Positions 23,854 through 42,353 of a DNA stretch of 64,000 bases are shown piece after piece. How positions within the stretch are numbered: position 1 is the stretch's first letter; each line of letters begins with the position of its first letter. Origin of the DNA: Trypanosoma brucei (lineage: Eukaryota); NCBI GenBank assembly GCA_000002445.1, contig CP000067.1:608001-672000 (forward strand), given 5' to 3'. The notes under the pieces are model-generated. The model was not told the DNA's origin and made no database searches. It worked only from the letters and a program-made list of their open reading frames with translations. The position numbers and the translations under genes were made by a program.

Positions 23854-25818
23854 ATGGCACGGCACCCCAACACGGCGATTGTGCTGCAACCCACCAATAG
23901 TGCCATTATCACTTTGGACTTATGTCTGCAACTCGGCGGCCCATCAGCACCGTTATGGCGGAAGAGCGTAGCAAGAGACGAGAATGAGGCAGCTGACAGA
24001 GCAATTGAGCGACTTAGGATTCTCATCGCGCAGTCCGCGGGGGACAAAAAGAGCAAAAAGACGTCACGCGAGGAGATTTTGAAGAATTGTCAGCCAATTG
24101 AAGTTCTTGGCGTGTCAAGCGAGGGGGAGCAGATCTTAAATGAAGAAAATGGCCTAACCAAGCTTGACACTTCTGTTTCCAATAAGGAATTCTGGAGGAA
24201 CGTCAGACAAATGTTGATTGGGTCAACTGTTGTGCCGGTTAAATACAACGTTCCCACCATTACTGCGGTAGTGCCACCCTCAGCGCTGTACGTGGGAGCC
24301 CCAGCAGTTTGCGCGGGCATCACAGCCCTCTTTACCACAGAGGTAGATGTTCAGTATGAATGGTGCGCACGCGCCGCTCCCAAGAGTCCTGCGGGCACGG
24401 GCGCTTCTTCTGATGCCACTGTGCGCGTAATCAGTACTAAACCCGTTTTTACTCCTACAACACGGGAGTTGGGTGAGTCGCTGTTTCTTCGCGTCCTACC
24501 GGAGCCGGGTTCAGATTTGTGCACACAAGTGGAGCTCCCTCAGGTTCGTGCCGAAGTGCCTCCAATGGATCGCTGGACTCAAACAAAGCAATCTGTGGAA
24601 GCACCGAGCTTTAGGATGGTTACGTACAACGTCTTGCACGAGGAGTTCTGTAGCACGAGTTCGGCAAAGAAAACCATTTATCCCTTCGCAACAGATGACA
24701 TTCTGTCGCTAGAGTACCGACAGAGCCGTATCGTGCAGGAACTTCTTGCATACAATGGTGATATTATCTGTTTGCAGGAATGCGGGAAAAAAGTGTACCA
24801 GCAATTTTTTTCCCGTGTTATGACTCAGTACGGCTATGAGGGATGCTATACAAACAAGAATGGTGGTGTAAGGGAGGGATGTGCATGTTTTTGGAGGCGC
24901 AGTAGATTCTTCCTGCAGGAAAAGGATGAATTTCCGCTCAACTGGTCAACGATGGAGAAGGAACATCCAGCTCTGGCAGCTGAGGTGACCCGTCATCCCG
25001 AGTTGAAGGAGGCGTTGGAGAATGTTACTTCGATTGGCGCCTTGGTATTACTGAAAGATAACGCGACAAACGAAGAGTTGGTGGTTGGGAACACGCATTT
25101 GTTCTATCATGCAAACGCCTGCCATATTCGGCTTCTACAGGTATACATGCTTCTTCACAAACTGAAGAGCCGCAGTGATTCGCGCAGGGGTGTTGTCTTA
25201 TGTGGGGACTTCAACTTTACCCACACAACGGGTGGCTACAAATTAGTGACTACGGGACGTACGGAGGCGTCACATCACTCGTGGGCGAAAGGGGAAGTGT
25301 TCCACTGGGGTTGTGACCGCATGTTAGGCATCAACGCCGCTGAGGGAGCGGGGGGGTCTGCGGAAGTTGAAACGGGTTTGGACGTGAGAAGGGGAAAGGG
25401 AGAATCTGCCACATGTGCTTCGAAAAACAATAAGAATGACACAAATAACAATAATGAGAGTAATGGCAATAGTGTAGATGCGAGCACATCATGTGCCGCA
25501 ACATCAGCTGATACTGGCGTTGCGTCAAGCGTAAAGGCTGATTACCGACCTCCATTTGATGTTTTCCGTGCGGACATGGAGGCACCAATGCAGTTCACAG
25601 ATGCGTATGGTGTAACGGATCCGGAAATGCCATGGACTAATTATACAATGACATTCCGTGAGGTTATTGACTACGTTTTCTTCAACCCAGACCGCCTGCT
25701 TGTCGTTCAGACAATTCCCATTCCACCAGAGAGTGAGCTGTCAGAAAATGTGGCTCTCCCGAACCGGAAGTACCCATCAGACCACGTTGCATTGATTGCC
25801 GATTTGTCGTACAAATAG
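23854..25818 (+). CDS. Endonuclease/exonuclease/phosphatase (EEP) family protein of the CCR4/nocturnin/PDE12 type, with an N-terminal extension and a low-complexity insert in the catalytic domain.
   Basis: The ORF track starts at a GTG (23725); the first ATG is at 23854. The EEP domain begins at SFRMVTYNVLHEE, includes GDIICLQEC and NTHLFYH, and ends with the C-terminal motif SDHVALIADL. An Asn/Ser/Gly-rich insert lies around 25330-25560. Confidence 0.8.
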   Translation: MARHPNTAIVLQPTNSAIITLDLCLQLGGPSAPLWRKSVARDENEAADRAIERLRILIAQSAGDKKSKKTSREEILKNCQPIEVLGVSSEGEQILNEENGLTKLDTSVSNKEFWRNVRQMLIGSTVVPVKYNVPTITAVVPPSALYVGAPAVCAGITALFTTEVDVQYEWCARAAPKSPAGTGASSDATVRVISTKPVFTPTTRELGESLFLRVLPEPGSDLCTQVELPQVRAEVPPMDRWTQTKQSVEAPSFRMVTYNVLHEEFCSTSSAKKTIYPFATDDILSLEYRQSRIVQELLAYNGDIICLQECGKKVYQQFFSRVMTQYGYEGCYTNKNGGVREGCACFWRRSRFFLQEKDEFPLNWSTMEKEHPALAAEVTRHPELKEALENVTSIGALVLLKDNATNEELVVGNTHLFYHANACHIRLLQVYMLLHKLKSRSDSRRGVVLCGDFNFTHTTGGYKLVTTGRTEASHHSWAKGEVFHWGCDRMLGINAAEGAGGSAEVETGLDVRRGKGESATCASKNNKNDTNNNNESNGNSVDASTSCAATSADTGVASSVKADYRPPFDVFRADMEAPMQFTDAYGVTDPEMPWTNYTMTFREVIDYVFFNPDRLLVVQTIPIPPESELSENVALPNRKYPSDHVALIADLSYK

Positions 25819-26810
25819 CTTCGGTTTGCAACTGCCGACATCCACGCGATATGGCGGAGCACGGGCATTCGAGGATGGAATAATGTGTGAGATGCGGCGT
25901 ATAAACATGATTTTCCGTTGAGATTTGTGCCTTGACGCTGAAGCGGAGTGTGGAAATGGTGTGGCCGCGGTATTTTGTCTGCCATGACAGCGTTAATGGT
26001 AATATGTCCCCTAGTTGGGCATTATTTGTGGCTATTGGAAAGTTTGTTGATGATTGGAGGCGACGAGCTAATGGGTTTTATTTCTTCACGGAACTGATAG
26101 TACCGCTGGAGATGGTCACGGGATTTATTGAGGGGTACAGTTGTGACAAGGACGGGAATCTAACCCTTTCTCTTTCTAAAAGAAACATATTGGAACACCG
26201 GCGGATGCCAAACACCTGCCGGTCACTTTCGTGATGGGTAACAAGCAGTTTGTACGTAGCTATCATCTACCTGTGAAATGAACAACCGTTATGTTGAAGT
26301 CACTTTGATTTTACAATCTGTTGCGCACTCAGAGAAAAGAGGGTAAGTGGCAGTACCCTTCTAAATTGTGGCGGTCTCCTCTTGGCTCGAGGTACACTTA
26401 ACGTATCAACTTAGCGGGATATGTATTTCTCACACAGTAAGTGTATTTTTACGGTTAGACGTGCCTTTATTTTCAGCCAATGTGCTGTCCAACGTTCCGT
26501 CTTGAGTGGCGGAGGTTGGGACTGGTGGTTGGTAGGGATTCATAACCCCGTCGTGCGTCGTGTGAGTAATCATGATTCTTTTTTGTTGTTGTTGTTTTTG
26601 CCGGGTGTCGATGCAAGGAGGAACAAGGTGTCCTCACGTACTTTCTTTTTTTAAAAAAAAAAAATCTTGTCAACGACCCTCCTCTTTTATATGTTTCTTT
26701 TTTTTGGGGGGGGGGGAAGTGCCCGAGGGCCCCGACAAGTTAACGGGGAAAAGGAAAAAAAGTGAAAGGGTGGGAAAGGGCAGAAGGAGGCGGAAGGAAC
26801 ATTCGCCACC

Positions 26811-27965
26811 ATGTTTTCACAAACGCGCTGTTCCGCATGCATCGGGAAAGAGCTGTACAGCAGGGCGTCGACACTTCCACGCGACTTTTACGAAGCGTGC
26901 GCGAAGCACTTCGGCATTAAGATGCATCAAGAGACATTTATTGGTGTGCGGTCCTCACAGATCCGAGGGTTGTTTCTAAGCCCCAGCATTAATAAACCGC
27001 TAGAGGCAAACAAACCCATTGCAACCATTCCTCTTAGTAGTCTATACACAGTGACGAATATCCACACTAAACCAGACACACTGCACCATGTGACACTAAG
27101 CAATGTTCGTGACGCAATACGTGATGTTGAATTCAAAGCGATGACGTCACAGTTCTACCTTGGTCTGCAAATGAGTGCAATTATAAGCTCACTTCCAGAC
27201 ATAACACGAGCTCAGAATGCGGAAGAGATGGAGCGCATCACGCAGATTCTTCGCGGGGGTGCCATGCCTTGGGTGCGATTAATTGATGATGAAGATTTCA
27301 ATGAGCAGTTCGTCTTCGGCATGTACGGTATGGCGCTAGACAGCTGGCAGCGGCAGAGCTACGAGGAAATGACTAAAGTGTTCCATCGCAACATTACCTC
27401 CATCCACGAAAAGACAAACCCACCCTTCTCCGTTGATACATTTAGGCGCATCACCCGACTGATACTTGCGCGGGCAGAACACTTTCCACCACTGGAATAT
27501 TACAACGGTTCCGTGTTGTGGCGTCGTGTCCTCCGTTTCGTGCGGCGCTGGTCCAAAATTCCAGAACCTTCAGAACTGTGCCTCGTGCCACTATTGGATC
27601 TGGTAAATCATTCCAATCGGCCAAATTGTGCCATCCGTATTGGGCCCAGTGCTGCCATGGATGGCCGTCCCGCCATCACGATTTACTCCATTGCACGCAT
27701 TAACCCCGGACAGGAGATTTGCAGACACTACAACTTCGCTATCAACAGGCCTAACGCACTTTTTCGTTATGGGTTCCTTCCTTTTGATCTTATTTCTATT
27801 GTGGAACATGACGCCATTGATGAGTATTTGGTGAAGAATCAGCATATGTTACGCGAAGAAACTGAGGAGGCCCAAATCAAACGTGCGAAGGAACGGGCGG
27901 AGCTCCAGCGGCTCGAGCAAATCTTTCAAAAAGCCCGCTCAGGGAGTGTGCCAGCGGATTCGTAA
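26811..27965 (+). CDS. SET-domain protein-lysine methyltransferase (split SET, SETD6/Rubisco-LSMT-like).
   Basis: An N-SET region near GVRSSQIRGLF, a long inserted (iSET) region, then LVPLLDLVNHSNRPNCAIRI and GQEICRHYNF (the NHS and post-SET-like motifs). Confidence 0.8.
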   Translation: MFSQTRCSACIGKELYSRASTLPRDFYEACAKHFGIKMHQETFIGVRSSQIRGLFLSPSINKPLEANKPIATIPLSSLYTVTNIHTKPDTLHHVTLSNVRDAIRDVEFKAMTSQFYLGLQMSAIISSLPDITRAQNAEEMERITQILRGGAMPWVRLIDDEDFNEQFVFGMYGMALDSWQRQSYEEMTKVFHRNITSIHEKTNPPFSVDTFRRITRLILARAEHFPPLEYYNGSVLWRRVLRFVRRWSKIPEPSELCLVPLLDLVNHSNRPNCAIRIGPSAAMDGRPAITIYSIARINPGQEICRHYNFAINRPNALFRYGFLPFDLISIVEHDAIDEYLVKNQHMLREETEEAQIKRAKERAELQRLEQIFQKARSGSVPADS

Positions 27966-28839
27966 GTGTGTGCACGTGTCAAAATATTTTAAAAAAAGAA
28001 TTCAGGGGGTGCCACCGCGTCTATGATTATGTTTGATGTTGTTATTGTTGGCTGAACTTGTATTTGTGTATTGTATTCTGTGGTAGTTCTCCATATGATG
28101 GCTTAGCGCGCATTTATTTGCCGTGCTTTCGGTCACCGAAGGCGTAAACTTTGGATACCGCTGTGAGTTGTTTTTGGTGTTGTGTTACCTTATGGAATGT
28201 TGTTGAAACGGCACACTTCTTGCATTTATCGTTCGTTCAGGTAATTGCTTGCACGCAAGTAACAGTAACGTCATTGGTGTTTGTGTTGAGGGATTTTGGC
28301 GGCTCAAAGATGTGGAGTATCGTCAATTCACAACGGTTGCATGGGTTTTTCTGGTAACCTCCGCGTTTGCCTCCCGTGTGATTCGATCTTTTTTTCTCCA
28401 CAATGCTTTTGCCATTGCAACACAAAGCTGCCGCATGCGTCCGTTAGCAGCGTATACAAATTTCCCCTCTATGATGTGAGTCTTTTTCTTTTTTTCTTAA
28501 AAAATAAAAGTTCGTTGTCCCCCTCTTTTGCTTACCCGACACACTGTTAGAGAGACATGGAATTATGTGCTTCTGCTTTTCTCTCCTACCAACTATGAGG
28601 CTGTTAAGTTTTTGATCAACTTTTTTGCCAGTGAACTAACGTCGCGCGAGTTTAAACAGGTGTAATAAAAAGAAAAAAAGGACAAAATAAAAAAAAGGTT
28701 AAAGTCAACCTCTCACACAAGGAAAATACACGCTGAAGGACAGAGGAGGAAACAACGTTAACATATAACAACGACACCAACAATAACATCAAAGAAGGAA
28801 AGAAGAGCAGCAAATAATTTATTTTTGGCGCACTCACAC

Positions 28840-30081
28840 ATGACGATGAAGCGCCCTTCTTTTCTTCTTGTGAGCCTTTTGTTTTTGGCAATTGGCAGCA
28901 CTGTCATAGAAGCCTTCCCCTTCACAGCCTCCTCTGGTGTTGTGGAGCTAACCCCTGCGACTTTCAACAGCTTCCTCGGCTCTCACAAACCCGTTTTTAT
29001 CCTTTTCTACGCACCGTGGTGTGGGCACTGCAAGCGCCTTCACCCGGAGTGGGAAAAGTTTGCCAAATCTGTCGAGGGAATTGTTCGTGTGGGTGCTGTG
29101 AATGCCGATGAGCACCAGCAACTTGGCCAACAATTCAACCTGCGCGGTTTCCCTACGGTTAAGTTTTGGGGTTTGGGAGAAAAGCGTGCCAATGCAGCTA
29201 TGGACTACGCCGGTGAGCGCAGCGCGGGAGCCATTCAATCGCAAGCCATCAGTCTCATCAATGCACCAGGAATCAAGACGGTGAAAAAAGCTGAGGAGCT
29301 ACGCGAGGCGGCTCAGGCGGCACCAGAGAAGAAGGCTGTTGTACTATTCAGTGCTAAAAGCCGCGTGCCGCCAATTTATGCCGTTCTTTCGCTCTCACCC
29401 CGACTCAAGTCGATGCCGTTTTACTTTGCAGGGGAGCAAGAAAAGTCTGGATTCGCTTCAGAATTTGGCGTAAGTAAACTTCCAGCCATTGTTGTCCTCA
29501 ACACCACCGCTGGCGAAGTGAAGCCGGTGATATACCCGGGGAAGAAAGTTGCTTATGAGCCCATTGCAAAGTTTTTACTGGCCTGTGCAAACGATGCTTA
29601 CGATGAGGCTAACTTCTCCTTGGAGGGTGGTGAGAGTGAGCAAGCTACAAAGAAGGGTGCTGCAAAGTTGGCGCTGCCAGTCCGGCCGCTCCCCGCGTCA
29701 GCTCATGGTCTCGAGAATTTTTGCTCCCCTGACGCACGGAAGAAGGCTGAGCGAACGCCACTGTGTGTGATTTCACTCACTTCTGAGTTTTCGCTTAACG
29801 ACGTGCATAAAACCTTCAGCAATGAGCCACTTGTTTTCTTCGAGGCTGGGGATGCTCGTGATATCCTTCTTGGGGCCCTTCGGGGAAAGCTGGGACTAGA
29901 GAAGATTGCAGACAAACTGAAGGACGACAAGGAACACAACGCACTTCTGCTTCGCGCCTCCAAGCAGGGCACCGTACACTACAGACTCGTTGGAGGCGTA
30001 AACACAGCTGAAACTCTCAGCTCAGTCTTACAAATGGTTGTATCAGGCGAGATATCCCTCACGAAGGAGCAGCCGAAGTAA
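28840..30081 (+). CDS. Secreted or ER protein-disulfide-isomerase-like protein with one active thioredoxin domain.
   Basis: The ORF track starts at a TTG (28825); the first ATG is at 28840. There is a signal-peptide-like N-terminus (MTMKRPSFLLVSLLFLAIGSTVIEA), a thioredoxin fold with the active site APWCGHCK, and downstream thioredoxin-like b domains. I see no obvious KDEL-type C-terminus (it ends KEQPK). Confidence 0.82.
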   Translation: MTMKRPSFLLVSLLFLAIGSTVIEAFPFTASSGVVELTPATFNSFLGSHKPVFILFYAPWCGHCKRLHPEWEKFAKSVEGIVRVGAVNADEHQQLGQQFNLRGFPTVKFWGLGEKRANAAMDYAGERSAGAIQSQAISLINAPGIKTVKKAEELREAAQAAPEKKAVVLFSAKSRVPPIYAVLSLSPRLKSMPFYFAGEQEKSGFASEFGVSKLPAIVVLNTTAGEVKPVIYPGKKVAYEPIAKFLLACANDAYDEANFSLEGGESEQATKKGAAKLALPVRPLPASAHGLENFCSPDARKKAERTPLCVISLTSEFSLNDVHKTFSNEPLVFFEAGDARDILLGALRGKLGLEKIADKLKDDKEHNALLLRASKQGTVHYRLVGGVNTAETLSSVLQMVVSGEISLTKEQPK

Positions 30082-31438
30082 CTTGTTGGAATGGAATGCA
30101 TCGTAACGGTGCCACCGGATTTGAGTGACGGTGCCAGTTGCTGCAAACTTTGGAACAGGTGCGGTTGTGGTGTATCTTCTTGTGCGCTAGACTGTCCATG
30201 ATGGGCGCAAGAGAAATCGAACAGGGGACAGCCGTGGGGAACAATAAATCAAGACGAAAAAAAAGGAACCGAGTCGAAAGCGTTGAACCTGCAACGATTA
30301 CTTCTTGGGAGTAAACGAAGCATGCGGTTTAAAAAAAAAAAGAAACAAGAGTATGATGGGACGAGTGGAGAAAGGTCTTAACCATGTTTTCCACACACAC
30401 ACACACTTTCCATGCTCTCTGTTCTCGCTTCTTTCTTTGATATTTCCATTTGCGGCTTTTTGCTGTTCAGCCCCTCGTGTGTGCATCAGCTCCTGTCGCT
30501 CAGTAAAGTGTATGTTTGCCAACGGAAGGGAAGTTCACCGAATGAAAGTGCCGATGGAACCGGTTTCCGACAGCGTGACGGGTGTTACCTTGATGATAAA
30601 GAAGAGAAGTAAAGGAGAAGAGATGCACAGAAACCGAAAGAAAAAAACGAAGATATGTTAGGTACACCTCTGTCAATGATATTATTATTATTACTCCTAT
30701 TATTGTCTTATTTTATTACTGTCTCTATTTTCTGTTTCACAAAGTGCACAACCGGCTACAGTACTCCATAACCGGGCCGGAACTGTCGTGTGCTCAACAA
30801 CTTACCACTCTGGCTCTCCCATAAATTTTCACTTTCCTTATACCCGAGTTTCCAATCACTCACGTGTCAATGTATATCCTTCTCTTTTTTTCTTCTGTTT
30901 TACTTTACTAACATTTTTTTTTTGATTTAGCTTCTCACCGTCCCTCTCACGTCCTCCTCCTGCGGGAGAAATTCTCATTCGCCTCCTTATACTCTTCGTT
31001 CGGGTTTATTACCAGTTCGAATTACGAAGTGTCGGAAGGCGGATCTTGGAACTGCGTAAGGGACGAAAGAAGAAAGAGAGGACCCTCCAAAATTGGCGCA
31101 CAACCTTTGAAGAGATCGCTGCGTACAGTCATACCATTGTGTCATTTTGTTGTTGCTATTATTGTCCCGCAAATTTGGCTCCTTTGCTTTGTTGGTAAAC
31201 TTCCCTTACGCGGGTGGGTGCTATATAATACACCGAAGAGATCGCCAACTTAGGAAGAAAAGAAGAAAGGAAGAGGTAAAGAGATAGCGAGAGAAAGGGG
31301 GAGTAGTTGGAGAGAGTTCCGTGCTGTAAGAACGACGATAGAAGAATAACGTTTTGTTTTTCCCCCTCCTTTATAAACACGGTTTACACGCAAACAAATA
31401 AGAAAAAGAGGGAGGAGGAAGCTGAAAGAGTGGAAGGT

Positions 31439-34400
31439 ATGGGTGCTTGCATAGCCGCACTAAGAGGGAAGGTCGCGGGTAAAACAAATGATTCACACGG
31501 GATTAGCGACCAGTCGCTGCCGACCGCGGAGAGTACAGATGATAGTGTCAACAACCGTAATGGAAAGTTCAATAAATGCATCCGTGGAGAAGAGAGCATT
31601 TCCTCGGGGGATATGCACGGCAAAGAGGGCAGCGACTTAAGTAAGTCGCTAACGAGTTTATGGGGGGTTCTCTCCAAAACAGAATTTGCTGACTTCTTTC
31701 GAGCACATCCCGAATTGTTGAAGTCCAATTCAGCTGCCGTCATGTGCACTGGCGCGTTTCGTCCCGGAGAACTTGTCGGGGCTTATTGCGTAGTGAAGGA
31801 ACTTCCAGGGGGAACGGTGGGTCGAAGTTTTTTGGTTAAAGCTGTGGACGACAGTGGCCCACCGACGCCCACCGTCACGACACCTGAGGTTGAAGATTCT
31901 GGTAAACGGGAGTTTGTGTTTAAGGTGATGACATTTATTAACCGTAAGAACTTGGTGGAACCGGTATTAGACGATAAGAGGGCTCTTATGAACCTGACAG
32001 GTGACGGTTTACTTCGCCCAGTCCATTTGCTACTCGACGAAGGGAATGAAACAGTGATATCTGTTACCCCTTTTTTGAAGGAAGGTTCGTGCGCTCGTCT
32101 TGCCGGAAAGCTTGAAGAGGATCGGTTACTGTCTATACTGCGTGATGTTGCAAGTGCTCTCCGTCTTCTTCATTCGCACAATATATACCACTGTAACCTG
32201 AAGTTGGAAAACGTTCTTTTGAGGGAGGATGGGAAAGCCTGCCTTGCCGACGCAGCGTTGTGGCGTATCTTCTCTACACAGAGCCGTGATTGCCTTCTCT
32301 TTAATGGTGAACTCGCGTGCATGCCTCCCGAGATGTTCATGATTGATGAAGCTGACAACCAGTCGAAGGACGCGAGCAAAGTAGACATTTGGGGGTTTGG
32401 GCTGTTCATGTACCGTCTGGCGTACGGGCGGGAGCCGTTTGACATTGAAGGAAAGGCACTTGAACAAGTCTGTGAACTAGTTTCTGTTGATAGGCTCCAG
32501 TTTCCTCAACGCAACTGGAGCATCGCGAGTTCGCTTGAGGATGCCATCCGTGTTTGTCTTGACGATGATCCGGAACGTCGACCAACAGTTCCGGGGTTGT
32601 TTAGCTTCTCATTGTTTCGGAACCACAATTTTAATTCTGTTGTGGCTGGAGGAAGTGTCGGGTTACCGGGATTCAGGGCGTCGCATAATGATACTGGACC
32701 AAGTGGTGGGCGCTCTGGCTCGGATAACTACATTAGGTGGGCATACCCAAGGTATCATTGGCGGAAGAACGTGTCACTCGACGAAATGCTCGGGTCTGGA
32801 GGCATCTGTGAAACATATCGGGTGCACCTGCGGCGGCATCCATCTAAGCAGTTCGTGATGAAGGTGCTAAAACGGTCAGTACTGAAGGCTGCCTCACAAT
32901 ACAGAATCAGCACAGACGATCTGCGTCACGCACTAGCTGTTTCGCGACTTATTAACCATCCTAACGTATTAAACCTGCTGGAGATTGTGGACTCGAGGGA
33001 CGGGTGCTTTGCTTCGCAGCAGTTGGCTAAAAGCAGGTTTCTTTACGCGGAGTTTCCCCCGTTGCTGAATCACAAAAACCCTCTCTTCACACTGAAACAG
33101 ATGCTCGCCGATGTCCTCCAGGGGCTTTTCGTGCTTCACCTAAATGGTGTGCCGCATCTCCGTCTGACACCATCAAACATTTTTTATGAGCTGGGCGTTG
33201 GTTTTAGGGTTTCGGACTTTGGTCCTTTGTTCCTTGCACGGGAGGAAATTGTCGAAAGTATGGAAACAGACCAACCACTGTATAGTGTACCACAGTGGGT
33301 GGTTGACGATTTAAAGGTGCCGATCCACATGTCGAGATTCAGTCTTGACGTTTTCTGTGTTGGTTTACTGGCCGCTTCAGCACTCCCTTCAGTTCTGCAT
33401 GAAGACTGGTACCGATTTTCTAATTCAGAGGGGTGTATTCTTGATGTGAAGGGGGTTTGTGAGAAGGTAAAGAATGCCTCCCTTTATCTTAAGCCGATGC
33501 TCGTGGACTTTATCCTCCAAGCGCTAACTAACCCCGCAACAACTGTGAGGGACTTGATGAATCATTCATATTTGAGCGACGCGATCGACGTCAGCAGGCT
33601 CGACGAGATGAAACCGCTGAACATATCGCCTGCTGATATGGAGATGGCCGTGTCAGAGAGGTTTACCACCACTGACGAATCTGGACTATGGAATGTTCTC
33701 GGTCACGACCCAGCGGCAGGGAATGGCCACTTGTGGTGCTCAATGTTCCGCAACGAAGCACTGCCCGACGGCTGCATACGGTCTGGCATTCAATCTGTTA
33801 ATGAAGTTGCGGCTGCAAGGCGGGTTCCTTTTGTTAAGAAACTCGTTTGCGGGCTGTGCCGGTGTGAATTACCCATAGTTTTATTTCTATGCGATAAGTG
33901 TGACGATTACATACGCTGCGCCAAGTGTTCGTTAGTGGATACACACGCCGACGACCACAAACTCAGCCCACACCTTGTCCACACCGTCGGGCAGGATGGG
34001 GTTGATGGCAACTTTTTTGCTTTATTGGTGCCAACATGCAATATATGTGTCGCGCAGTCACTGGAAGCCCTAGAAATGCAGGCCAACCTGCCACACGGAA
34101 CGCTGACGAAAGATATCACCACCCAATCAGTTACTGCGGAGCGAGCCCTACGGCGGCTAACACTTGCGAAGTTGAATCCAGGCCCCAAGGTACTTCCCAA
34201 AGTCTCGGATACTGAAGGTGAGACTTGGGAGGAGGAAGTTGCAAGCTGCCGCGAGACTCGAAACACTGAGCTGTTGTTGCATCAATTTGAACTGAACACT
34301 GTACCGAAGGAGCTGTTTGACCCGCCGCTGCTTCACGTGGCGAGTATTGACCTTAGTTACAACAAGTTAACCAGCCTTCCCGACGATCTGGCCCTTCTTT

Positions 34401-35299
34401 GCAACTTGAGAAGTGTTTCCGTTGCGCATAATGCTCTGACTGTTCTACCAGACAGCATGGGTGAACTCCGTCAACTAGATCGTTTAGACGCGAGCCACAA
34501 TAAACTAAAGGACCTGCCGTTAACATTTGTCAAACTACGCAAGTTGAGCACTGTCACCTTAGACTTCAATGAATTTTCGGGGTTGCCTCGCGTTTTGGAC
34601 GATCTCATTGTTGCCACCGCATCGACACCGCAGCTTTCCACCATTTATTTAGCGGAGAACACCAACATAACAAGGTTCCCCGATTACACGAACCTTGCAA
34701 TCTTACCCACGCTTAAGTTGGCCTTAGACAACGAACCCAGTGTTTATCAAACGTATCTCAATGAAAACCTTGCAGAAAAGCTACCCAACATTGGCATGCT
34801 TTGGAATAAAATATATCCAGATCGAATCGTTGATAACGTGTTTTGTGGGAGCTTGCGCACCACTCAATCACAGGTGGTGTACGATAAACTTGGCATAAAA
34901 AACCTCTTGACAGTGGGAAGGGACCTCGTTCCCGTCCCTCCGGTTGGTGGAAAACATCTCGTTATCTCATTAGATGATATTGAGGAGGCGGATATCCGTT
35001 GTACATTTGATGAGGCTGTCAACTTCATTGATATGAGTGTGGAAAAAGGTGAAGGGTGTTTGGTCCACTGCTTCGCCGGACTCTCGCGTTCCGCCACGAC
35101 AGTAATAGCATACTTCATGATGAAGAGAGGCATGAGACTTGGCGATGCGTACCAGCTAACGAAAAGGGGCCGACCTTCTATTTACCCCAATGAGGGTTTC
35201 TTTAGACAAATGATTGAACTGGATGGTGAGTTGTTCCCCGATGACCCGCCACTGCAACTGGAGGACATTGGAAGAGAAAGTCCCAATGTAAGGGTGTAG
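31439..35299 (+). CDS. Multidomain signalling protein: an N-terminal MGxC acylation motif, two kinase-like domains (both predicted pseudokinases), a ZZ-type zinc finger, leucine-rich repeats, and a C-terminal dual-specificity phosphatase with an intact active site.
   Basis: The ORF track starts at a TTG (31307); the first ATG is at 31439, giving MGACIAAL. Kinase-like domain 1 has HCNLKLEN instead of HRDLKPEN (near 32189) and ADA instead of DFG. Kinase-like domain 2 has HLRLTPSN (near 33155) while DFG is retained. The Cys cluster CGLCRC...CDKCDDYIRCAKC...H...H (about 33848-33975) fits a ZZ finger. LRRs span about 34280-34700. The phosphatase signature HCFAGLSRSAT (CX5R) is near 35066. Confidence 0.85.
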   Translation: MGACIAALRGKVAGKTNDSHGISDQSLPTAESTDDSVNNRNGKFNKCIRGEESISSGDMHGKEGSDLSKSLTSLWGVLSKTEFADFFRAHPELLKSNSAAVMCTGAFRPGELVGAYCVVKELPGGTVGRSFLVKAVDDSGPPTPTVTTPEVEDSGKREFVFKVMTFINRKNLVEPVLDDKRALMNLTGDGLLRPVHLLLDEGNETVISVTPFLKEGSCARLAGKLEEDRLLSILRDVASALRLLHSHNIYHCNLKLENVLLREDGKACLADAALWRIFSTQSRDCLLFNGELACMPPEMFMIDEADNQSKDASKVDIWGFGLFMYRLAYGREPFDIEGKALEQVCELVSVDRLQFPQRNWSIASSLEDAIRVCLDDDPERRPTVPGLFSFSLFRNHNFNSVVAGGSVGLPGFRASHNDTGPSGGRSGSDNYIRWAYPRYHWRKNVSLDEMLGSGGICETYRVHLRRHPSKQFVMKVLKRSVLKAASQYRISTDDLRHALAVSRLINHPNVLNLLEIVDSRDGCFASQQLAKSRFLYAEFPPLLNHKNPLFTLKQMLADVLQGLFVLHLNGVPHLRLTPSNIFYELGVGFRVSDFGPLFLAREEIVESMETDQPLYSVPQWVVDDLKVPIHMSRFSLDVFCVGLLAASALPSVLHEDWYRFSNSEGCILDVKGVCEKVKNASLYLKPMLVDFILQALTNPATTVRDLMNHSYLSDAIDVSRLDEMKPLNISPADMEMAVSERFTTTDESGLWNVLGHDPAAGNGHLWCSMFRNEALPDGCIRSGIQSVNEVAAARRVPFVKKLVCGLCRCELPIVLFLCDKCDDYIRCAKCSLVDTHADDHKLSPHLVHTVGQDGVDGNFFALLVPTCNICVAQSLEALEMQANLPHGTLTKDITTQSVTAERALRRLTLAKLNPGPKVLPKVSDTEGETWEEEVASCRETRNTELLLHQFELNTVPKELFDPPLLHVASIDLSYNKLTSLPDDLALLCNLRSVSVAHNALTVLPDSMGELRQLDRLDASHNKLKDLPLTFVKLRKLSTVTLDFNEFSGLPRVLDDLIVATASTPQLSTIYLAENTNITRFPDYTNLAILPTLKLALDNEPSVYQTYLNENLAEKLPNIGMLWNKIYPDRIVDNVFCGSLRTTQSQVVYDKLGIKNLLTVGRDLVPVPPVGGKHLVISLDDIEEADIRCTFDEAVNFIDMSVEKGEGCLVHCFAGLSRSATTVIAYFMMKRGMRLGDAYQLTKRGRPSIYPNEGFFRQMIELDGELFPDDPPLQLEDIGRESPNVRV

Positions 35300-37764: not shown

Positions 37765-38318
37765 TACATACATAGATGTATGTGCGTACTGATGTGCTTC
37801 TGTATTTATTCATCTGTTGTGTGAATTGGTGAATACTGCAGTGTTTCCCTCTTTTTTTTTCTTCATCCCTTGAATCCTTTTTCATATCGTGTTCGACAAG
37901 GAAGTGTGTGGAAAGTAGTCAACAGGGCGTTGTTTCAACGTGCAAGATCTTGTGCTACAGCGAGTTCTCTATGACGCAGTTGCTGCCATTGTAGTAACGT
38001 CGGCTGGTGTATGCCGTTGTTTACTTATTTTATTGTTGTTTCTTCTTCACTCTATCATGTTTGTTTTATTACTTTTCCCCCCCATTTCCACAATCGAGAT
38101 TTCCTCCCTGATATCTCCTTTTCACACTGTTATCGCCCATTTCTGTCTCCCACATGAAACCTTCTACACTTTCGCTACCACTTGTCTCTTAACTTCCATT
38201 TGAAAAACAAGAAGGCCTCTCGCACTTACTTATCCATTAACTCTATCCGCCCGATTCTCTCTTTACTTTCCTTATTTTGACCAGGCAGAAGCCAAATCTT
38301 TAGTTATTGGCGCGCTGC

Positions 38319-41300
38319 ATGGAGCTACTCAACGTGTTACCGCATGAGGCCGCTCTCCATAGGTTGATGCGCGCAGGTGTGTGCAACGATGACCAAATGC
38401 ATGATTATTTCATATCGCAAGCGTTTCGTGGCATCGCATATGCTGTAAACCGCGCCACACTTCCTGCACCCGTTTTTGTACAGCAACCATTCCTGTCAGG
38501 CAGTTCAAACACAACTGGAAGCTCGGGTGGCACCAACGACTCGCCCACACTGAATCCCTGTGCTGCAGGGAGTACAACCGCTACAACTACTGGCGCAGTG
38601 TGCGTGCTGTGCCGAATGTGTGTTCAAGCTGTGACATCTCACATGTCGCACCGGACAGCGGCGTATCTCGCAACGCGGCTCTTGGCTGATGAGGCAACAG
38701 CTTTCGGTGAAGGTAATGAGCGACCATGTTGTACAGTGGCATGGGTTGAAGCACTGTGCTCGGTGGGCAAAGCATCTTTTTTACAGAAGCAGTTAGGCGT
38801 TAACAGACGCATGGCACTGGGCTATTTGTACATTCTTGCGGAAACGGTGCGTGCGACTGCGCGAGGCCGTGTCATTGGTAAACGACTCAGTAGTCATTTT
38901 GTGGAGTTCGCCCACCGGATATTGGATGATGTCATACCGTACTTAGCGATCATGGCAGATGCCCGAGAGGTATTTGCGGTGACGCGGCACGTGCCGGTTG
39001 CAGGCAACCCATCGGAGGGTAATATTCCAACAGAAACAACGTCAACGGCGGCAGTTGTACCGAGGCCTGCGTGGCATCCCCCATCAAGGTTGACTGTCGA
39101 GGCCAACAACACGATTATACACCTGTTTCATGATATCGCGCATGACATCATCGACGTGCACCACAGGAGCGGGAAGAATCCAGGGGAACGTTGCCTAGTT
39201 CTTGACCGTGACATGCCAAGCAGGATGTGGCCAGCGGTGTCTATACTCCAAAGTGCACTTCATCGTGCATTAGATTGGATTTTACAGGAGGGGTTGGCTT
39301 GTGTTCGCACCATGGCACTGGCAACAGAGCACAGGGAAGAGAAAGCCGCAATAGAGGCGGTACAGACTGTCAAGAAGGCGCTGGACGACACGTTCGCGCA
39401 GATGTTTGAGAGGCAGGAAACACTGGAATGCTCGCGGCAAGCCGTAGAGAGGCAGTACGGGAAGGGTGCGAAGGATTATCATGGAATCACGGACACATTG
39501 TGGGCAAATACGCTGCGGCTGTGTCTCCTCTGCAGGAATGTCACTGGTGCGTGGATAGAAGTGTATGGCGGTGCAGGTTACACTGAAACGCGATCCACGG
39601 ACAAAAACGTCCTCAGTTTCATCGCCTCGTTCGTGTCTTCGGTACCACTAATGGACGGAGATGAAACGGAATCAAGTGTCTTCCTTGCCACTATTGCACT
39701 TTTGTCGGCAGCACTCGCAGCTGTTGTTGCGGCCCCTGTTCCTTTTATGCAGGTCTCCCTGTGGGTATCCGACACCGCGTTGACGGGTCAGGTGCACAAT
39801 GTCGTTATTCAGCGTGGACTTCGATACAAGGATGAGCTCGTGCAGAGGTTGAGTGCGCTCATCTCACAATTAATACTTTCTGGTTCATCGCTATCCGGGG
39901 CCTCTCGTGCCATTGTTGAATCCTCCGATCAGTTACTCGAGCTCATTTCAAACGGCAGGGATGCGGCTTCGCACTGCGTTATTCGTATGCTTTCGCGCGC
40001 AATACTTGAGCGTCCCCATAGCATGCTTCCAGCGCTCTTTCGTCTTCTGCAGCACGGCGATGTGAAGACACGGCGCAATGTTTTGGATGTCCTTTCTGCG
40101 CTACCGCAAATGGACGATGAAGCCGGCCTCGGTGAGAAACTGGTCGCGGAGCAAATGCGACCGATGTTGCGACAGCTCTCAGAGGAACTACTACTACGTA
40201 TCCAGGATGAAGAACTACTTGTGCGACTACAGGGTTCCAAGCTTTTCGCGAAGGTGTGGCCGGAAGATGTAATCCGACCGCTGCTGAATCTTGCCACACA
40301 GAAGGACAAGTCGCACAAGAAGCAATCAGCTGCTCAACAGGCGCTACGCTCTGTCGTAGCGGCACACACAGGAGACAGCCGTGTTGTGCTGCTTCTGCTT
40401 GACGAATCGTTGAAGCTCGTGGGAGAGACCACACCGACAGCCCCCACCGCTCCTAACACCCCGGCGGGTATGTTGGCTTTTGCGCAACTGCACTCTTGCG
40501 TGGGGGAAAGGGAAGGCGAGGGGGACGGTGCTGGGGGGCAACCAGGTTGTGCGGCTGCAACGGGCGGATTGACTACCATTAGTGCTGCTGGGGGTTTTTG
40601 CCAGCGGTTGATGGGGATTGCTCTCTCCTTAGTGAAACGGTGGGCGGAAGAGGTGCCTTCGTGGTCCGAGCCAGTGCTCCAGCCCATCGTTGACCGTGTT
40701 GTGAGTGCGCGCAGTCCAAAAGAGCAGGAGTTCGCAGTCCGATTCATTGCGCAGGTCTCATCCTTGTGTGGAATAACGGTGGAGGGGGCAGCTGCACTTA
40801 CGTCGTGCGTCCTGCGGGTTGTACAAGGGGGTAAGACAGGATCATTGCCGTCTGAGCGATGGCTAACTGGATTGTGTGGATCACGCCAAAGTAACAATTC
40901 AAACGAGAAAAGAGATGAAATTGCGTTAGTGGAAGAATGCTGTCCAGTTGACAGCGAATATCGGATGATTGCGCCACTTCTCTGTCTTAGGGGCTGCCCG
41001 AGACGACCATTTTTGTCTTGTCGTGTGGACAGTATGCCTCCCTCTATGCTGAATCTTTGGGAATTCATTTGGTTTGTCTTATTCTCATCGGACTACTGCG
41101 AGCAGCTTACGCCCGACACGCAGCGCTTGCTGCTGGAACTCGTCTGCAAGTACAGAACATCAATGGTGCTTGAGCGTTTTGCTCACTTTGAGCGAATGCA
41201 TTTGGAAAAGAATGGAGACAAGGAGCGTAAAAGCTGTGAAGGAAATAGTGCATATTTGATTTGTGCGGACAAACAAGCTTGTTTCTTGTTCCGTGCGGGG

Positions 41301-42353
41301 TTCTTCTGCACAGGTACTCTTGTTGCGCAAAGCAGTCTAGCGTTTACCAAACCGGCCACCAAAGATGGCGAGTCTCAGCTGGGAGTTGAGACTGCGACTA
41401 CTTCGTCCCCAGAAGGCAGTTGCGAAGAAGCAATGGAGCTACTTGATCTGGTTCATGCTGCAGAGTTGGTGTCTCGCTGGACTGAGTCTGTTGTGTTCCC
41501 CTGGCTCCTTGGTGACAATGATGACGAAACCACGTGTAGCAGGAACCCCCCTAGTGATCTGCAGCGCCTAAGTCGCTCCGCTATTGATTGTATCGCGCTC
41601 CTTACAGTTGTTGCACTAAACCGCGCGGAATTCGACGCTCATGTCTCGCGTCTCGTCAGGAACCCTCTGAGTGAACTGGCTCTCTTGTACAGAGAAGAGG
41701 TGAAGCAATCGAAGAAAGATGTTGGTGCTGAGAGGAAGGAAGCCTTTGCATTGGAGAAATGTGGTGATCTGCTAGGGCGGTTCGAGTTTGCGGTTCAAGT
41801 TCACAGCCGCGTTCTCAACATCTTGCGTGCGAGTCAAATGGGAAGAGGAAACGTTTGCACCTGGTTCATTGCGTTTATGCCGCATCTCATTGAGCTTGCT
41901 AACGCGGCCTGTGGGGTTGCTGCGCGCCTTGGTAGGAATGATGTTGGTCAGGTAGCGGTTGAGTGCTGTAACGTGTTATTTTTAGCCGCTATGTCGTCCA
42001 GTGGCGGCCCGCCGGCGGTGGAAGGGGAGCGGCGAGCAACGAGCGGTGAAAGCGATACCAAACCTCTTCTGATGGACCTTTGCACTTCTGATCGGAGCGC
42101 ATTGCTTGCCTTTGCGGTCGGCAGTTCGCGGTATTCGAGTCTACCGGCGGTGCAGTCAGAAGGTGTTAAGCTCCTCTCCGCATTGTTGGGTGCAGCGCCC
42201 GATATATTCGTAGACACGGCTGCGGGTAAAGGGACGGCGTTGGATGAAGCCTTCAGTGCCCTGAGTTCCGTTGCGCTCCTTCATGAAGACTGCAAGACGC
42301 GATCACTTGCAGAGGCAGTTATCAGCACCATTCAAAAGACTGAGCAAATATGA
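38319..42353 (+). CDS. Large hypothetical alpha-helical (HEAT/ARM-like) protein.
   Basis: The ORF track starts at a TTG (38307); the first ATG is at 38319. The 1345 aa ORF is predicted helical-repeat in character throughout. No catalytic motif recognised. Confidence 0.75.
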   Translation: MELLNVLPHEAALHRLMRAGVCNDDQMHDYFISQAFRGIAYAVNRATLPAPVFVQQPFLSGSSNTTGSSGGTNDSPTLNPCAAGSTTATTTGAVCVLCRMCVQAVTSHMSHRTAAYLATRLLADEATAFGEGNERPCCTVAWVEALCSVGKASFLQKQLGVNRRMALGYLYILAETVRATARGRVIGKRLSSHFVEFAHRILDDVIPYLAIMADAREVFAVTRHVPVAGNPSEGNIPTETTSTAAVVPRPAWHPPSRLTVEANNTIIHLFHDIAHDIIDVHHRSGKNPGERCLVLDRDMPSRMWPAVSILQSALHRALDWILQEGLACVRTMALATEHREEKAAIEAVQTVKKALDDTFAQMFERQETLECSRQAVERQYGKGAKDYHGITDTLWANTLRLCLLCRNVTGAWIEVYGGAGYTETRSTDKNVLSFIASFVSSVPLMDGDETESSVFLATIALLSAALAAVVAAPVPFMQVSLWVSDTALTGQVHNVVIQRGLRYKDELVQRLSALISQLILSGSSLSGASRAIVESSDQLLELISNGRDAASHCVIRMLSRAILERPHSMLPALFRLLQHGDVKTRRNVLDVLSALPQMDDEAGLGEKLVAEQMRPMLRQLSEELLLRIQDEELLVRLQGSKLFAKVWPEDVIRPLLNLATQKDKSHKKQSAAQQALRSVVAAHTGDSRVVLLLLDESLKLVGETTPTAPTAPNTPAGMLAFAQLHSCVGEREGEGDGAGGQPGCAAATGGLTTISAAGGFCQRLMGIALSLVKRWAEEVPSWSEPVLQPIVDRVVSARSPKEQEFAVRFIAQVSSLCGITVEGAAALTSCVLRVVQGGKTGSLPSERWLTGLCGSRQSNNSNEKRDEIALVEECCPVDSEYRMIAPLLCLRGCPRRPFLSCRVDSMPPSMLNLWEFIWFVLFSSDYCEQLTPDTQRLLLELVCKYRTSMVLERFAHFERMHLEKNGDKERKSCEGNSAYLICADKQACFLFRAGFFCTGTLVAQSSLAFTKPATKDGESQLGVETATTSSPEGSCEEAMELLDLVHAAELVSRWTESVVFPWLLGDNDDETTCSRNPPSDLQRLSRSAIDCIALLTVVALNRAEFDAHVSRLVRNPLSELALLYREEVKQSKKDVGAERKEAFALEKCGDLLGRFEFAVQVHSRVLNILRASQMGRGNVCTWFIAFMPHLIELANAACGVAARLGRNDVGQVAVECCNVLFLAAMSSSGGPPAVEGERRATSGESDTKPLLMDLCTSDRSALLAFAVGSSRYSSLPAVQSEGVKLLSALLGAAPDIFVDTAAGKGTALDEAFSALSSVALLHEDCKTRSLAEAVISTIQKTEQI

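What the first reader, a model, noticed from the sequence alone, without database searches (positions are those of the whole stretch)
31439..35299. Tandem pseudokinases, ZZ finger, LRRs and an apparently active dual-specificity phosphatase in one 1286-aa protein with an N-terminal MGxC acylation motif
Both kinase-like domains lack the catalytic Asp of the HRD loop (HCNLKLEN and HLRLTPSN), and the first also has ADA in place of DFG. The C-terminal phosphatase keeps the full HCxAGxxRS(T) P-loop. This is the reverse of what the name would suggest: dead kinases coupled to a live phosphatase. The ZZ-type Cys/His cluster (CGLCRC…CDKCDDYIRCAKC…H…H) and LRRs suggest a scaffold. MGAC at the re-set start predicts N-myristoylation plus palmitoylation, hence membrane targeting. 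Kinetoplastid LRR-DSP proteins have been described, but I am not aware of a report of this specific double-pseudokinase arrangement. It is worth checking whether it is conserved.
Basis: partly seen in the sequence, partly recalled or inferred. Interest (0 to 1): 0.55.

Follow-up and report, generated by a model that had tools for sequence, protein, structure and literature searches.

The report
Trypanosome kinatase gene, already described
This is the Trypanosoma brucei "kinatase" gene (Tb927.4.2460), a phosphatase fused to two dead-looking kinase domains and described in 2007, so the architecture is not new; I add only a real ZZ zinc finger and a family-wide N-terminal lipid-anchor signal.

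Summary
Window 31439-35299 (+) encodes a 1286-aa protein made of an MGAC N-terminus, two kinase-like domains, a Cys/His cluster, about 6-7 leucine-rich repeats and a dual-specificity phosphatase with an intact HCxxGxxRS loop.

The architecture is not new. The protein is 100% identical to a T. brucei-group "dual specificity protein phosphatase". It matches Tb927.4.2460 (1286 aa), which Brenchley et al. 2007 (PMC2175518) listed as the T. brucei "kinatase". That paper already reported that the HRD Asp is lost in every kinase domain and that DFG is altered in the first one.

One detail is wrong. The first domain keeps the DFG Asp (D271-A-A; D-A-G in orthologues), so it lacks only the catalytic base (N253).

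- **ZZ finger.** Pfam misses it, but all eight ligands are invariant in 14 relatives. A family profile hits solved ZZ domains (E 3.8e-9 to 1e-4), and an AlphaFold model (pLDDT 90.5) matches almost only ZZ domains.
- **N-terminal signal.** Thirteen related gene models start, or can be re-set to start, with MG, and 11 of them have a Cys at positions 3-5. ATG 31439 is the first ATG in 568 nt.

No acylation, enzyme activity or zinc binding was tested here. Verdict: already known, low interest.

The parts
31439..35299 (+). Whole coding sequence of the kinatase (1286 aa plus stop); equals Tb927.4.2460
   Evidence: 100% identity to a T. brucei-group protein; Tb927.4.2460, 'Kinatase', 1286 aa.
31352..31402 (+). 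Nearest polypyrimidine tract (31352-31373) and the first AG after it (31401-31402). This is a candidate spliced-leader acceptor that would give a 36-nt 5' UTR.
   Evidence: This is sequence inference only; no RNA data were available. A stronger tract at 30877-30907 with an AG at 30929 would give a 508-nt UTR with no upstream ATG.
31439..31459 (+). N-terminal MGACIAA: predicted N-myristoylation at Gly2 and S-palmitoylation at Cys4
   Evidence: The sequence matches PROSITE PS00008. MG[AV]C[IV]A is conserved in T. vivax and T. cruzi, while the next ~70 residues are not. All 13 related gene models start, or can be re-set to start, with MG, and 11 have a Cys at positions 3-5.
31751..32626 (+). Pseudokinase domain 1 (residues ~105-396). 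Retained: K162, D179 (alphaC acidic), K255, N258, D271, E298, D316, R381. Catalytic loop: H251-C-N253 (nt 32189-32212). DFG is replaced by D271-A-A (nt 32249-32257).
   Evidence: Pfam; HMMER alignments to solved kinases; MAFFT alignment with PKA/CDK2; invariant columns.
32756..33583 (+). Pseudokinase domain 2 (residues ~440-715). Retained: K475, N580, D593-F-G. HRD is replaced by H573-L-R575 (nt 33155-33178). The catalytic-loop Lys is replaced by T577. The alphaC Glu, APE Glu and subdomain XI Arg are lost.
33818..34033 (+). ZZ-type zinc-finger module (residues 794-865). Ligands: C804, C807, C818, C821, C827, C830, H836, H840 (core nt 33848-33958). A beta-hairpin extension follows.
   Evidence: The ligands are invariant in 6 orthologues and in 14 family members. 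A family profile hits solved ZZ domains at E 3.8e-9 to 1.9e-4. The AF2 model has pLDDT 90.5. The Foldseek top ~25 hits are almost all ZZ domains, prob 0.9-0.99, rmsd ~2.1-2.4 A. Pfam ZZ scores 20.6 bits in relative P0020. There is no Pfam hit for this protein itself.
34265..34738 (+). About 6-7 leucine-rich repeats of 23 residues (residues ~943-1100), closest to SHOC2
   Evidence: Pfam LRR_8 and LRR_4. The best solved match is SHOC2, E 6e-42 over 4 stretches. Repeat boundaries were read from the sequence.
34808..35233 (+). Dual-specificity phosphatase domain (residues ~1124-1265). General-acid D1180, P-loop H1210-C1211-FAGLS-R1217-S1218 (nt 35066-35092), and the AYxM and PNxGF motifs.
   Evidence: Pfam DSPc E 1.5e-24. 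The best solved matches are MKP catalytic domains DUSP9/7/6/5/4/16/10, E 6e-21 to 1e-17, with aligned D, C and R. These residues are invariant in orthologues.

Best explanation
**Shown.** The ORF is the T. brucei-group orthologue of the kinetoplastid 'kinatase' (Tb927.4.2460). It is a single-copy, syntenic gene, conserved across trypanosomatids. The encoded protein runs: MGxC N-terminus, pseudokinase 1, pseudokinase 2, ZZ finger, ~6-7 SHOC2-like LRRs, MKP-like dual-specificity phosphatase.

- Both kinase-like domains lack the catalytic Asp in every relative examined.
- The phosphatase keeps the general acid (D1180), the nucleophile (C1211) and the Arg (R1217).

**Inferred.**
- The protein is N-myristoylated on Gly2 and palmitoylated on Cys4, and so sits on the cytoplasmic face of a membrane.
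- The only catalysis is dephosphorylation by the C-terminal DSP.
- The two pseudokinase domains, the ZZ finger and the LRRs are non-catalytic docking or regulatory modules. They select or present phosphoprotein substrates, plausibly MAPK-pathway kinases, given the MKP-like catalytic domain and the absence of the rhodanese/KIM docking domain that MKPs normally use.
- Pseudokinase 1 differs from an active kinase essentially by D166N (PKA numbering) and DFG->DAG. It probably still binds nucleotide and acts as a conformational switch rather than an enzyme.
For: **Identity.** 100% match to a T. brucei-group protein, and orthologues at 34-52% identity. Tb927.4.2460 is listed as 'Kinatase', 1286 aa. 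The family definition is in PMC2175518. The gene order thioredoxin gene -> kinatase is kept in T. cruzi, T. vivax and this window.

**Domains.**

**Loss of the catalytic Asp.**. It is also lost in distant relatives: HHN, HGS, HGH, HGN, HRH.

**Retained nucleotide-site residues in PsK1.** K162, D/E179, K255, N258 and D271.

**Phosphatase residues.**

**ZZ finger.**

**Acylation motif and start codon.**
- No ATG in any frame for 568 nt upstream, and an in-frame stop at 31304.
- In T. cruzi, T. vivax and Leptomonas an in-frame stop lies just upstream of the MG start and no ATG occurs within at least 241 nt.
- MG plus a Cys at positions 3-5 is found in 11 of 13 gene models.

**Function.** No null mutant of the L. 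infantum orthologue could be obtained, and changing its dosage alters morphology, cell cycle and MAPK transcript levels (PMC13210143).
Against: - No enzymatic, lipidation, zinc-binding, localisation or interaction data exist for the T. brucei protein in the searchable literature. The gene ID is not found in any main text.
- Tb927.4.2460 is not in the part of the Mills 2007 high-confidence N-myristoylation prediction list that is held as text.
- The T. cruzi orthologue Q4E5B2 was detected in azidomyristate-capture proteomics, but without a usable ratio.
- Leptomonas and one related model start MGVTLKR. This has no nearby Cys and a disfavoured Lys at position 6.
- T. cruzi has a Pro at position 7, which breaks PS00008.
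- The MAPK-substrate idea rests on catalytic-domain similarity and on indirect transcript data only.
Confidence: 0.75

Rival explanations
1. Pseudokinase 1 is not dead. It is a low-activity or unconventional kinase, so the protein is a true bifunctional kinase/phosphatase.
For: PsK1 keeps the beta3 Lys (K162), an acidic alphaC residue (D179, or E in Leishmaniinae), the catalytic-loop K255 and N258, the Mg-binding D271, two of the three G-loop glycines (G125, G128), PPE298, D316 and R381. Only the catalytic base is changed, to Asn. From my own knowledge and not tested here: HER3 and JAK2 JH2 also carry Asn at this position, bind ATP and show weak activity.
Against: The D->N change is the standard kinase-dead mutation. 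A solved Aurora A construct carries HRN. The position is never Asp in any of ~15 relatives (N, S or H). The DFG Phe is also lost. Brenchley 2007 reached the same 'likely inactive' verdict.
Confidence: 0.12
2. The MGAC N-terminus is not used. The mRNA is trans-spliced downstream of 31439 or translation starts at Met59, so the protein is soluble and not acylated.
For: No RNA data were available here. Residues 8-75 are poorly conserved. The widely used Leishmania model (1382 aa) starts at an internal Met. The protein is absent from the held part of a high-confidence myristoylation prediction list.
Against: ATG 31439 is the first ATG after 568 ATG-free nucleotides that contain two polypyrimidine/AG candidates. 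The MG start is likewise the first ATG for at least 241 nt, just downstream of an in-frame stop, in three other species. MGxC is conserved although the following residues are not, including in relatives with ~30-40% identity. That pattern is hard to explain unless the N-terminus is translated.
Confidence: 0.1
3. The phosphatase domain acts mainly on a non-protein substrate (a lipid or glycan phosphate), or is a substrate trap, rather than being a protein phosphatase of MAPK-type targets.
For: Substrate specificity was never measured. Many atypical DSPs act on non-protein substrates (general knowledge). The protein is probably at a membrane.
Against: The closest solved relatives are all protein MKP catalytic domains. 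The P-loop HCFAGLSRS lacks the extra basic residues of PTEN-type lipid phosphatases (general knowledge). D1180, C1211, R1217 and S1218 are all present, so it is not a STYX-type trap.
Confidence: 0.08

Closest known systems
Kinetoplastid kinatases (Brenchley et al. 2007): Tb927.4.2460, Tc00.1047053506559.190, LmjF34.2190; L. infantum LINF_340027100 (PMC13210143, 2026)
   Same: It is the T. brucei member itself. Length (1286 aa), domain order, loss of the HRD Asp in both kinase domains, altered DFG in the first, SHOC2-like LRRs and an active-looking DSP all match.
   Different: Nothing differs in kind. Three points are added here that I did not find in those papers: the ZZ finger, the conserved N-terminal MGxC signal, and retention of the DFG Asp in domain 1.
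Kinetoplastid LRR-DSPs (e.g. Tb11.02.5220) and LRR-DSP proteins of other protists
   Same: An LRR block directly followed by an MKP-like DSP domain. Hundreds of such proteins match residues ~930-1280 of this protein (query positions ~840-1194).
   Different: They lack the two pseudokinase domains and, judging by their lengths of about 400-700 aa, the ZZ module.
SHOC2-MRAS-PP1C holophosphatase
   Same: An LRR scaffold of the SHOC2 type (best solved match) combined with a phosphatase and a lipid membrane anchor, acting on a kinase pathway. This is an analogy in working principle only.
   Different: There the three functions sit on three proteins, the phosphatase is PP1 (PPP family), and SHOC2 has about 20 repeats. 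Here there is one polypeptide, a Cys-based DSP and about 6-7 repeats. No GTPase partner is known.
Nucleotide-binding pseudokinases with Asn at the catalytic-base position (HER3, JAK2 JH2)
   Same: HxN replaces HRD while the beta3 Lys and the metal-binding Asp/Asn are kept (PsK1). The comparison with HER3 and JAK2 is from my own knowledge.
   Different: There is no orthology. PsK1 also has DAG/DAA instead of DFG, and it is fused to a phosphatase rather than paired with an active kinase.
Classical MAP kinase phosphatases (DUSP6/7/9 etc.)
   Same: The catalytic domain is the closest solved relative, with all catalytic residues and the AYLM and PNxxF motifs aligned.
   Different: There is no N-terminal rhodanese/CH2 domain with a kinase-interaction motif, and Pfam finds none. 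Docking must be provided by other modules.
ZZ domains of p62/SQSTM1, Nbr1, HERC2, p300/CBP, dystrobrevin
   Same: Eight-ligand C2-C2-C2-H2 cross-brace. Profile E-values are 3.8e-9 to 1.6e-3. Fold match has TM (target-normalised) 0.6-0.7 and rmsd ~2.1-2.4 A.
   Different: Below the Pfam threshold. The acidic residues that p62 uses to bind N-terminal amines (D after the first Cys, and the CPDYD box; my own knowledge) are not conserved here: G805 is invariant and the CxxCxx box varies. An extra beta-hairpin is packed on in the model.

Membership tests
Kinatase (Brenchley 2007) | C-terminal DSP domain with the CX5R signature | tested here: met
   Pfam DSPc E 1.5e-24; HC1211FAGLSR1217S.
Kinatase (Brenchley 2007) | Two protein-kinase-like domains, each lacking the HRD catalytic Asp | tested here: met
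   Pkinase has two stretches. N253 and R575 align with the catalytic Asp.
Kinatase (Brenchley 2007) | Leucine-rich repeats between the kinase-like domains and the DSP | tested here: met
   LRR_8 and LRR_4 at residues ~969-1050; SHOC2 is the best solved match.
Kinatase (Brenchley 2007) | Orthology with the listed T. cruzi and L. major members, and listing of the T. brucei gene | tested here: met
   46% identity over 100% of the length to the T. cruzi protein and 34% to the Leishmaniinae proteins. The upstream thioredoxin gene is shared. Tb927.4.2460 is listed as 'Kinatase', 1286 aa.
Pseudokinase | At least one of the VAIK Lys, HRD Asp or DFG Asp is missing | tested here: met
   The HRD Asp is missing in both domains. 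The VAIK Lys (K162, K475) and the DFG Asp (D271, D593) are present in both.
Pseudokinase | No phosphotransfer activity | not testable with these tools
   This needs a recombinant protein assay.
ZZ-type zinc finger | Eight Zn ligands spaced CxxC...CxxC...CxxC...H...H | tested here: met
   C804, C807, C818, C821, C827, C830, H836 and H840 are invariant in 14 family members.
ZZ-type zinc finger | Match to the curated Pfam model PF00569 | tested here: not met
   No hit for this protein even at E<=10. Relative P0020 scores 20.6 bits against a cut-off of 21.4.
ZZ-type zinc finger | Significant profile similarity to solved ZZ domains | tested here: met
   A 14-sequence profile hits S. pombe Nbr1 ZZ at 3.8e-9, p62 at 2.5e-6, dystrobrevin at 6.4e-6, HERC2 at 6e-5 and MIB1 at 1.9e-4.
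ZZ-type zinc finger | ZZ fold | tested here: met
   AF2 pLDDT 90.5. The Foldseek PDB top hits are nearly all ZZ domains, prob 0.9-0.99. E-values are weak (>=0.16) because the domain is small.
ZZ-type zinc finger | Binds two zinc ions | not testable with these tools
   This needs metal analysis.
N-myristoylated / dually acylated protein | Met-Gly start with an NMT-compatible context and a nearby Cys | tested here: met
   MGACIAA matches PS00008 and has Cys4. The feature is conserved in the family.
N-myristoylated / dually acylated protein | That Met is the real initiation codon | tested here: inconclusive
   It is the first ATG in 568 nt, with an in-frame stop upstream, and the same start is seen in other species. 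No spliced-leader or N-terminal peptide data are available.
N-myristoylated / dually acylated protein | Lipid actually attached | tested here: inconclusive
   T. cruzi Q4E5B2 appears in azidomyristate-capture tables without a ratio. Tb927.4.2460 is not in the held text of the Mills 2007 prediction list. No 'dual specificity' entry was found in the L. donovani tables.
Classical MAP kinase phosphatase | N-terminal rhodanese/CH2 domain with a kinase-interaction motif | tested here: not met
   There is no rhodanese hit in Pfam. Only the catalytic domain resembles MKPs.

The most novel reading that the evidence does not exclude
The kinatase would be a self-contained, membrane-tethered holophosphatase whose unreported parts matter for function. 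A family-wide myristoyl/palmitoyl anchor and a divergent ZZ finger would position an MKP-like phosphatase. Pseudokinase 1 (D->N only) would be an ATP-binding switch that gates it. A corollary is that the Leishmania reference model (1382 aa), used in the only functional study, lacks the true N-terminus and the anchor.
Probability: 0.35. Interest if true: 0.4.

Novelty: already known. Interest (0 to 1): 0.2.

Why it matters
The gene belongs to a kinetoplastid-specific signalling family with no human counterpart. No null mutant of its Leishmania orthologue could be obtained, and that orthologue has been linked to antimony resistance (PMC13210143). It is therefore of some drug-target interest.

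The architecture itself has been known since 2007. The practical value of this check lies in four points:
- It stops a rediscovery.
- It corrects the DFG reading: domain 1 is a one-residue pseudokinase that may bind ATP.
- It adds two testable features, a ZZ finger and a conserved dual-acylation signal.
- It flags that the Leishmania gene model used for overexpression probably lacks about 199 N-terminal residues, including that signal.

Tried and rejected
- **Pfam ZZ.** Scanning the Cys-rich segment and two orthologues at E<=10 gave no ZZ hit, so I turned to family profiles and structure.
- **Six-sequence profile against PDB.** This gave only weak ZZ hits, E 0.006-4. A 14-sequence profile was needed for significance.
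- **Gene ID in the literature.** Tb927.4.2460 was not found in any main text.
- **Mills 2007 N-myristoylation prediction supplement.** The gene is not listed in the held text.
- **L. donovani myristoylome supplements.** There is no 'dual specificity' entry and no MGVTLKR string. This is uninformative, because that database probably used the truncated model.
- **T. cruzi myristoylome.** The orthologue was detected but not quantified.
- **T. brucei lipidation and palmitoylome papers.** They are not in the searchable library.
- **Spliced leader at the 5' end of a transcript-like contig of a relative (L004).** None was present.
- **Downstream 1348-aa gene as a possible degenerate paralogue.** This is rejected: there is no similarity and no Pfam hit.
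- **Second structure prediction (multi-domain).** I did not run it, because the tool returns no inter-domain geometry.

Full report

Yes. Window 31439-35299 (+) translates without interruption into 1286 residues plus a stop. The mechanical ORF list extends it to a TTG at 31307 only because it uses the bacterial code.

Pfam finds these domains:
- Pkinase in two stretches, E 8.6e-35.
- LRR_8 (E 1.5e-10) and LRR_4 (E 1.2e-8).
- DSPc at residues 1145-1261, E 1.5e-24.

- MGAC at residues 1-4.
- HCNLKLEN at 251-258.
- HLRLTPSN at 573-580.
- The Cys/His cluster at 804-840.
- HCFAGLSRS at 1210-1218.

The window is a one-strand gene array typical of a trypanosomatid polycistron.

**2. What it is**

The protein is 100% identical to a 'dual specificity protein phosphatase, putative' of the T. 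brucei group. Full-length orthologues exist in T. vivax (52%), T. cruzi (46%), T. rangeli, and Leptomonas and a second Leishmaniinae-like protein from JGI (34%).

Brenchley et al. 2007 (PMC2175518) defined a DSP subfamily with 'two pseudokinase domains ... and LRRs' and named it 'kinatases'. Their supplementary table lists Tb927.4.2460, 'Kinatase', 1286 aa. That is the same length as the ORF from ATG 31439.

The same paper already states the following:
- The catalytic Asp of HRD is substituted in all the kinase domains.
- The first domain also has DFG substitutions.
- The LRRs resemble SHOC2.
- The DSP looks active.

Reviews repeat this. A 2026 paper gives the first functional data for the L. 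infantum orthologue: no null mutant could be obtained, and there are dosage effects on morphology, cell cycle, H2O2 and SbIII sensitivity and MAPK transcript levels.

The 'double-pseudokinase arrangement' is therefore a rediscovery.

**3. Kinase motifs scored against real kinases**

| Feature (PKA numbering) | Domain 1 | Domain 2 |
|---|---|---|
| G-loop | x-G-G125-T-V-G128 (2 of 3 Gly invariant) | GSGGIC |
| Beta3 Lys | K162, invariant | K475, invariant |
| AlphaC Glu | Acidic (D179; E in Leishmaniinae) | Lost (A/D/Q) |
| HRD | H251-x-N253 (Asn invariant) | H573-L-R575 (R/C/S) |
| Catalytic-loop Lys | K255, invariant | T577 (T/C/S) |
| Catalytic-loop Asn | N258, invariant | N580, invariant |
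| DFG | D271-A-A here, D-A-G in all orthologues | D593-F-G, invariant |
| APE Glu | PPE298, kept | Lost |
| Subdomain IX Asp | D316, kept | D637, kept |
| Subdomain XI Arg | R381, kept | Lost |

Both domains do lack the catalytic base.

The same holds in distant relatives: HHN, HGS, HGH, HGN, HRH. Domain 1 is otherwise almost a complete kinase, so nucleotide binding is plausible. Whether it is truly inactive cannot be decided here.

**4. Phosphatase**

The closest solved proteins are MKP catalytic domains (DUSP9, 7, 6, 5, 4, 16, 10; E 6e-21 to 1e-17). The following align and are invariant among orthologues:
- The general acid D1180, 31 residues before the nucleophile.
- C1211, R1217 and S1218.
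- The AYxM and PNxGF motifs.

No rhodanese/KIM docking domain is present. 'Apparently active' is a fair reading of the sequence, but no enzymatic data exist.

**5. ZZ finger**

Pfam gives no ZZ hit for this protein, even at E<=10, and the 2007 InterPro list for the gene has none. Other tests do support it:
- **Ligands.** All eight putative ligands are invariant in six orthologues and in 14 family members down to about 20-30% identity in this segment.
- **Six-sequence profile.** It retrieves mostly ZZ domains from the PDB at weak E-values.
- **Fourteen-sequence profile.** It retrieves them significantly: S. pombe Nbr1 3.8e-9, p62 2.5e-6, dystrobrevin 6.4e-6, HERC2 6e-5, MIB1 1.9e-4.
- **Structure.** An AlphaFold model of residues 790-870 has pLDDT 90.5. 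Its top ~25 Foldseek PDB hits are almost exclusively ZZ domains, with prob 0.9-0.99, target-normalised TM 0.6-0.7 and rmsd 2.1-2.4 A over 44 residues. E-values are only >=0.16, because the domain is small.
- **Pfam in a relative.** One relative (P0020) scores 20.6 bits on Pfam ZZ, just under the 21.4 cut-off.

I accept it as a divergent ZZ domain. The acidic residues that p62-type ZZ domains use to grip N-terminal amines (from my own knowledge) are not conserved here, so the ligand is unknown. I found no mention of a ZZ domain in the kinatase papers.

**6. N-terminus**

- **Upstream sequence.** ATG 31439 is the only ATG in any frame between 30871 and 31487, and an in-frame stop lies at 31304.
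- **Candidate acceptors.** A polypyrimidine tract at 31352-31373 is followed by an AG at 31401, which would give a 36-nt UTR. A longer tract at 30877-30907 with an AG at 30929 would give a 508-nt UTR free of upstream ATGs.
- **Next start.** The next in-frame Met is residue 59.
- **Other species.** In T. cruzi, T. vivax and Leptomonas an in-frame stop lies 9-129 nt upstream of the MG codon and there is no ATG within at least 241 nt.
- **Local conservation.** MG[AV]C[IV]A is conserved among the three Trypanosoma species, although the next ~70 residues are not.
- **Wider family.** In the wider family found by an exhaustive HMMER search, the N-termini read MGVLCGS (L. donovani long model), MGTICSN, MGVCISH, MGICLSN, MGCGSSQ and MGACVSS. 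Two called ORFs contain MGCGASS and MGCAAST a few residues in.
- **Counts.** All 13 models can start with MG. Eleven have a Cys at positions 3-5, and 10 match PS00008.
- **Exceptions.** Leptomonas and one JGI protein start MGVTLKR, and T. cruzi has a Pro at position 7.

Direct evidence is thin:
- The T. cruzi orthologue Q4E5B2 is listed in azidomyristate-capture tables but without ratios.
- Tb927.4.2460 is not in the held text of the Mills 2007 high-confidence list.

The acylation claim is therefore well supported by conservation, but it remains a prediction.

**7. How it most likely works**

*Shown:* the anatomy and its conservation.

*Inferred:* the protein is a membrane-anchored phosphatase. 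Its single catalytic centre is the MKP-like DSP. The two pseudokinase domains, the ZZ finger and the SHOC2-like LRRs act as docking or regulatory modules, replacing the missing MKP docking domain. The likely targets are protein kinases of MAPK-type pathways.

The working analogy is the SHOC2-MRAS-PP1C holophosphatase, which combines an LRR scaffold, a lipid anchor and a phosphatase directed at a kinase. Here the parts would be fused into one chain. This is an analogy only, not a claim of membership.

Rivals:
- Domain 1 retains weak kinase activity (0.12).
- The MG start is not used (0.10).
- The substrate is not a protein (0.08).

**8. Distribution**

- **Full-length relatives.** These occur in Leishmania, Leptomonas, Strigomonas, Phytomonas and several unnamed assemblies.
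- **Single-pseudokinase form.** More distant proteins have one pseudokinase followed by ZZ, LRR and DSP (P0021, P0022, P0025, P0026).
- **LRR-DSP proteins.** Hundreds of these match only the C-terminal third.
- **Tandem pair.** On one metagenomic contig, a single-pseudokinase form and a double-pseudokinase form lie in tandem directly after the same CorA and thioredoxin genes that precede the T. cruzi kinatase.

**9. Verdict**

The additions are modest: a validated ZZ domain, a family-wide dual-acylation signal, retention of the DFG Asp in domain 1, and a probable N-terminal truncation of the Leishmania reference model. Interest is 0.2.

Noticed in passing
P0164 vs P0016 (Leishmania orthologues); no window coordinates: The reference Leishmania model (LmjF.34.2190 / LINF_340027100, 1382 aa, starting MYEVLDALRSS) begins at an internal Met of a 1581-aa L. 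donovani model that starts MGVLCGS. Sequence upstream of that Met is conserved between L. donovani and Leptomonas (LSARALRIASRVDSIVRKCEGLD vs LSARAVRIVARVDTIVRRCEDLD). The short model therefore probably lacks about 199 residues and the acylation signal. The 2026 functional study describes the gene by this 4,149-bp/1382-aa model.
   Followed up: partly
L005:1-10260 (ENA ERZ17807527 contig): In an unidentified kinetoplastid-like contig the gene order is CorA, thioredoxin, a single-pseudokinase ZZ-LRR-DSP protein (P0026, starting MGCGSS), then a double-pseudokinase kinatase (starting MGACVSS). These are tandem paralogues at the position where T. cruzi, T. vivax and this window have one gene.
   Followed up: partly
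window 38307-42353 (+): The 1348-aa ORF immediately downstream has no Pfam hit at E<=0.001 and no similarity to the kinatase. A syntenic ~1300-aa gene, also with no Pfam hit on record, follows the kinatase in T. cruzi and T. vivax. An antisense 244-aa ORF (40334-41068) lies inside it and is probably spurious.
   Followed up: partly
window 23725-30081 and 42626-44173 (+): The neighbouring genes on the same strand are an Exo_endo_phos/PDE12-like nuclease (23725-25818), a SET-domain protein (26811-27965), a thioredoxin-domain protein (28825-30081) and an OGG1-type 8-oxoguanine glycosylase (42626-44173).
   Followed up: no
P0030 (Logan assembly): One double-pseudokinase relative has lost the second CxxC pair and both His ligands of the ZZ pattern (CCICGAIMKYVVYFAKANGTVRCGKC...). 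The finger is therefore not indispensable in every lineage, or that gene model is imperfect.
   Followed up: no
window 30082-31438: The 1.36-kb intergenic region has long A-rich and pyrimidine-rich runs, a short (CA)n run near 30390, and no ATG at all in its last 568 nt.
   Followed up: no
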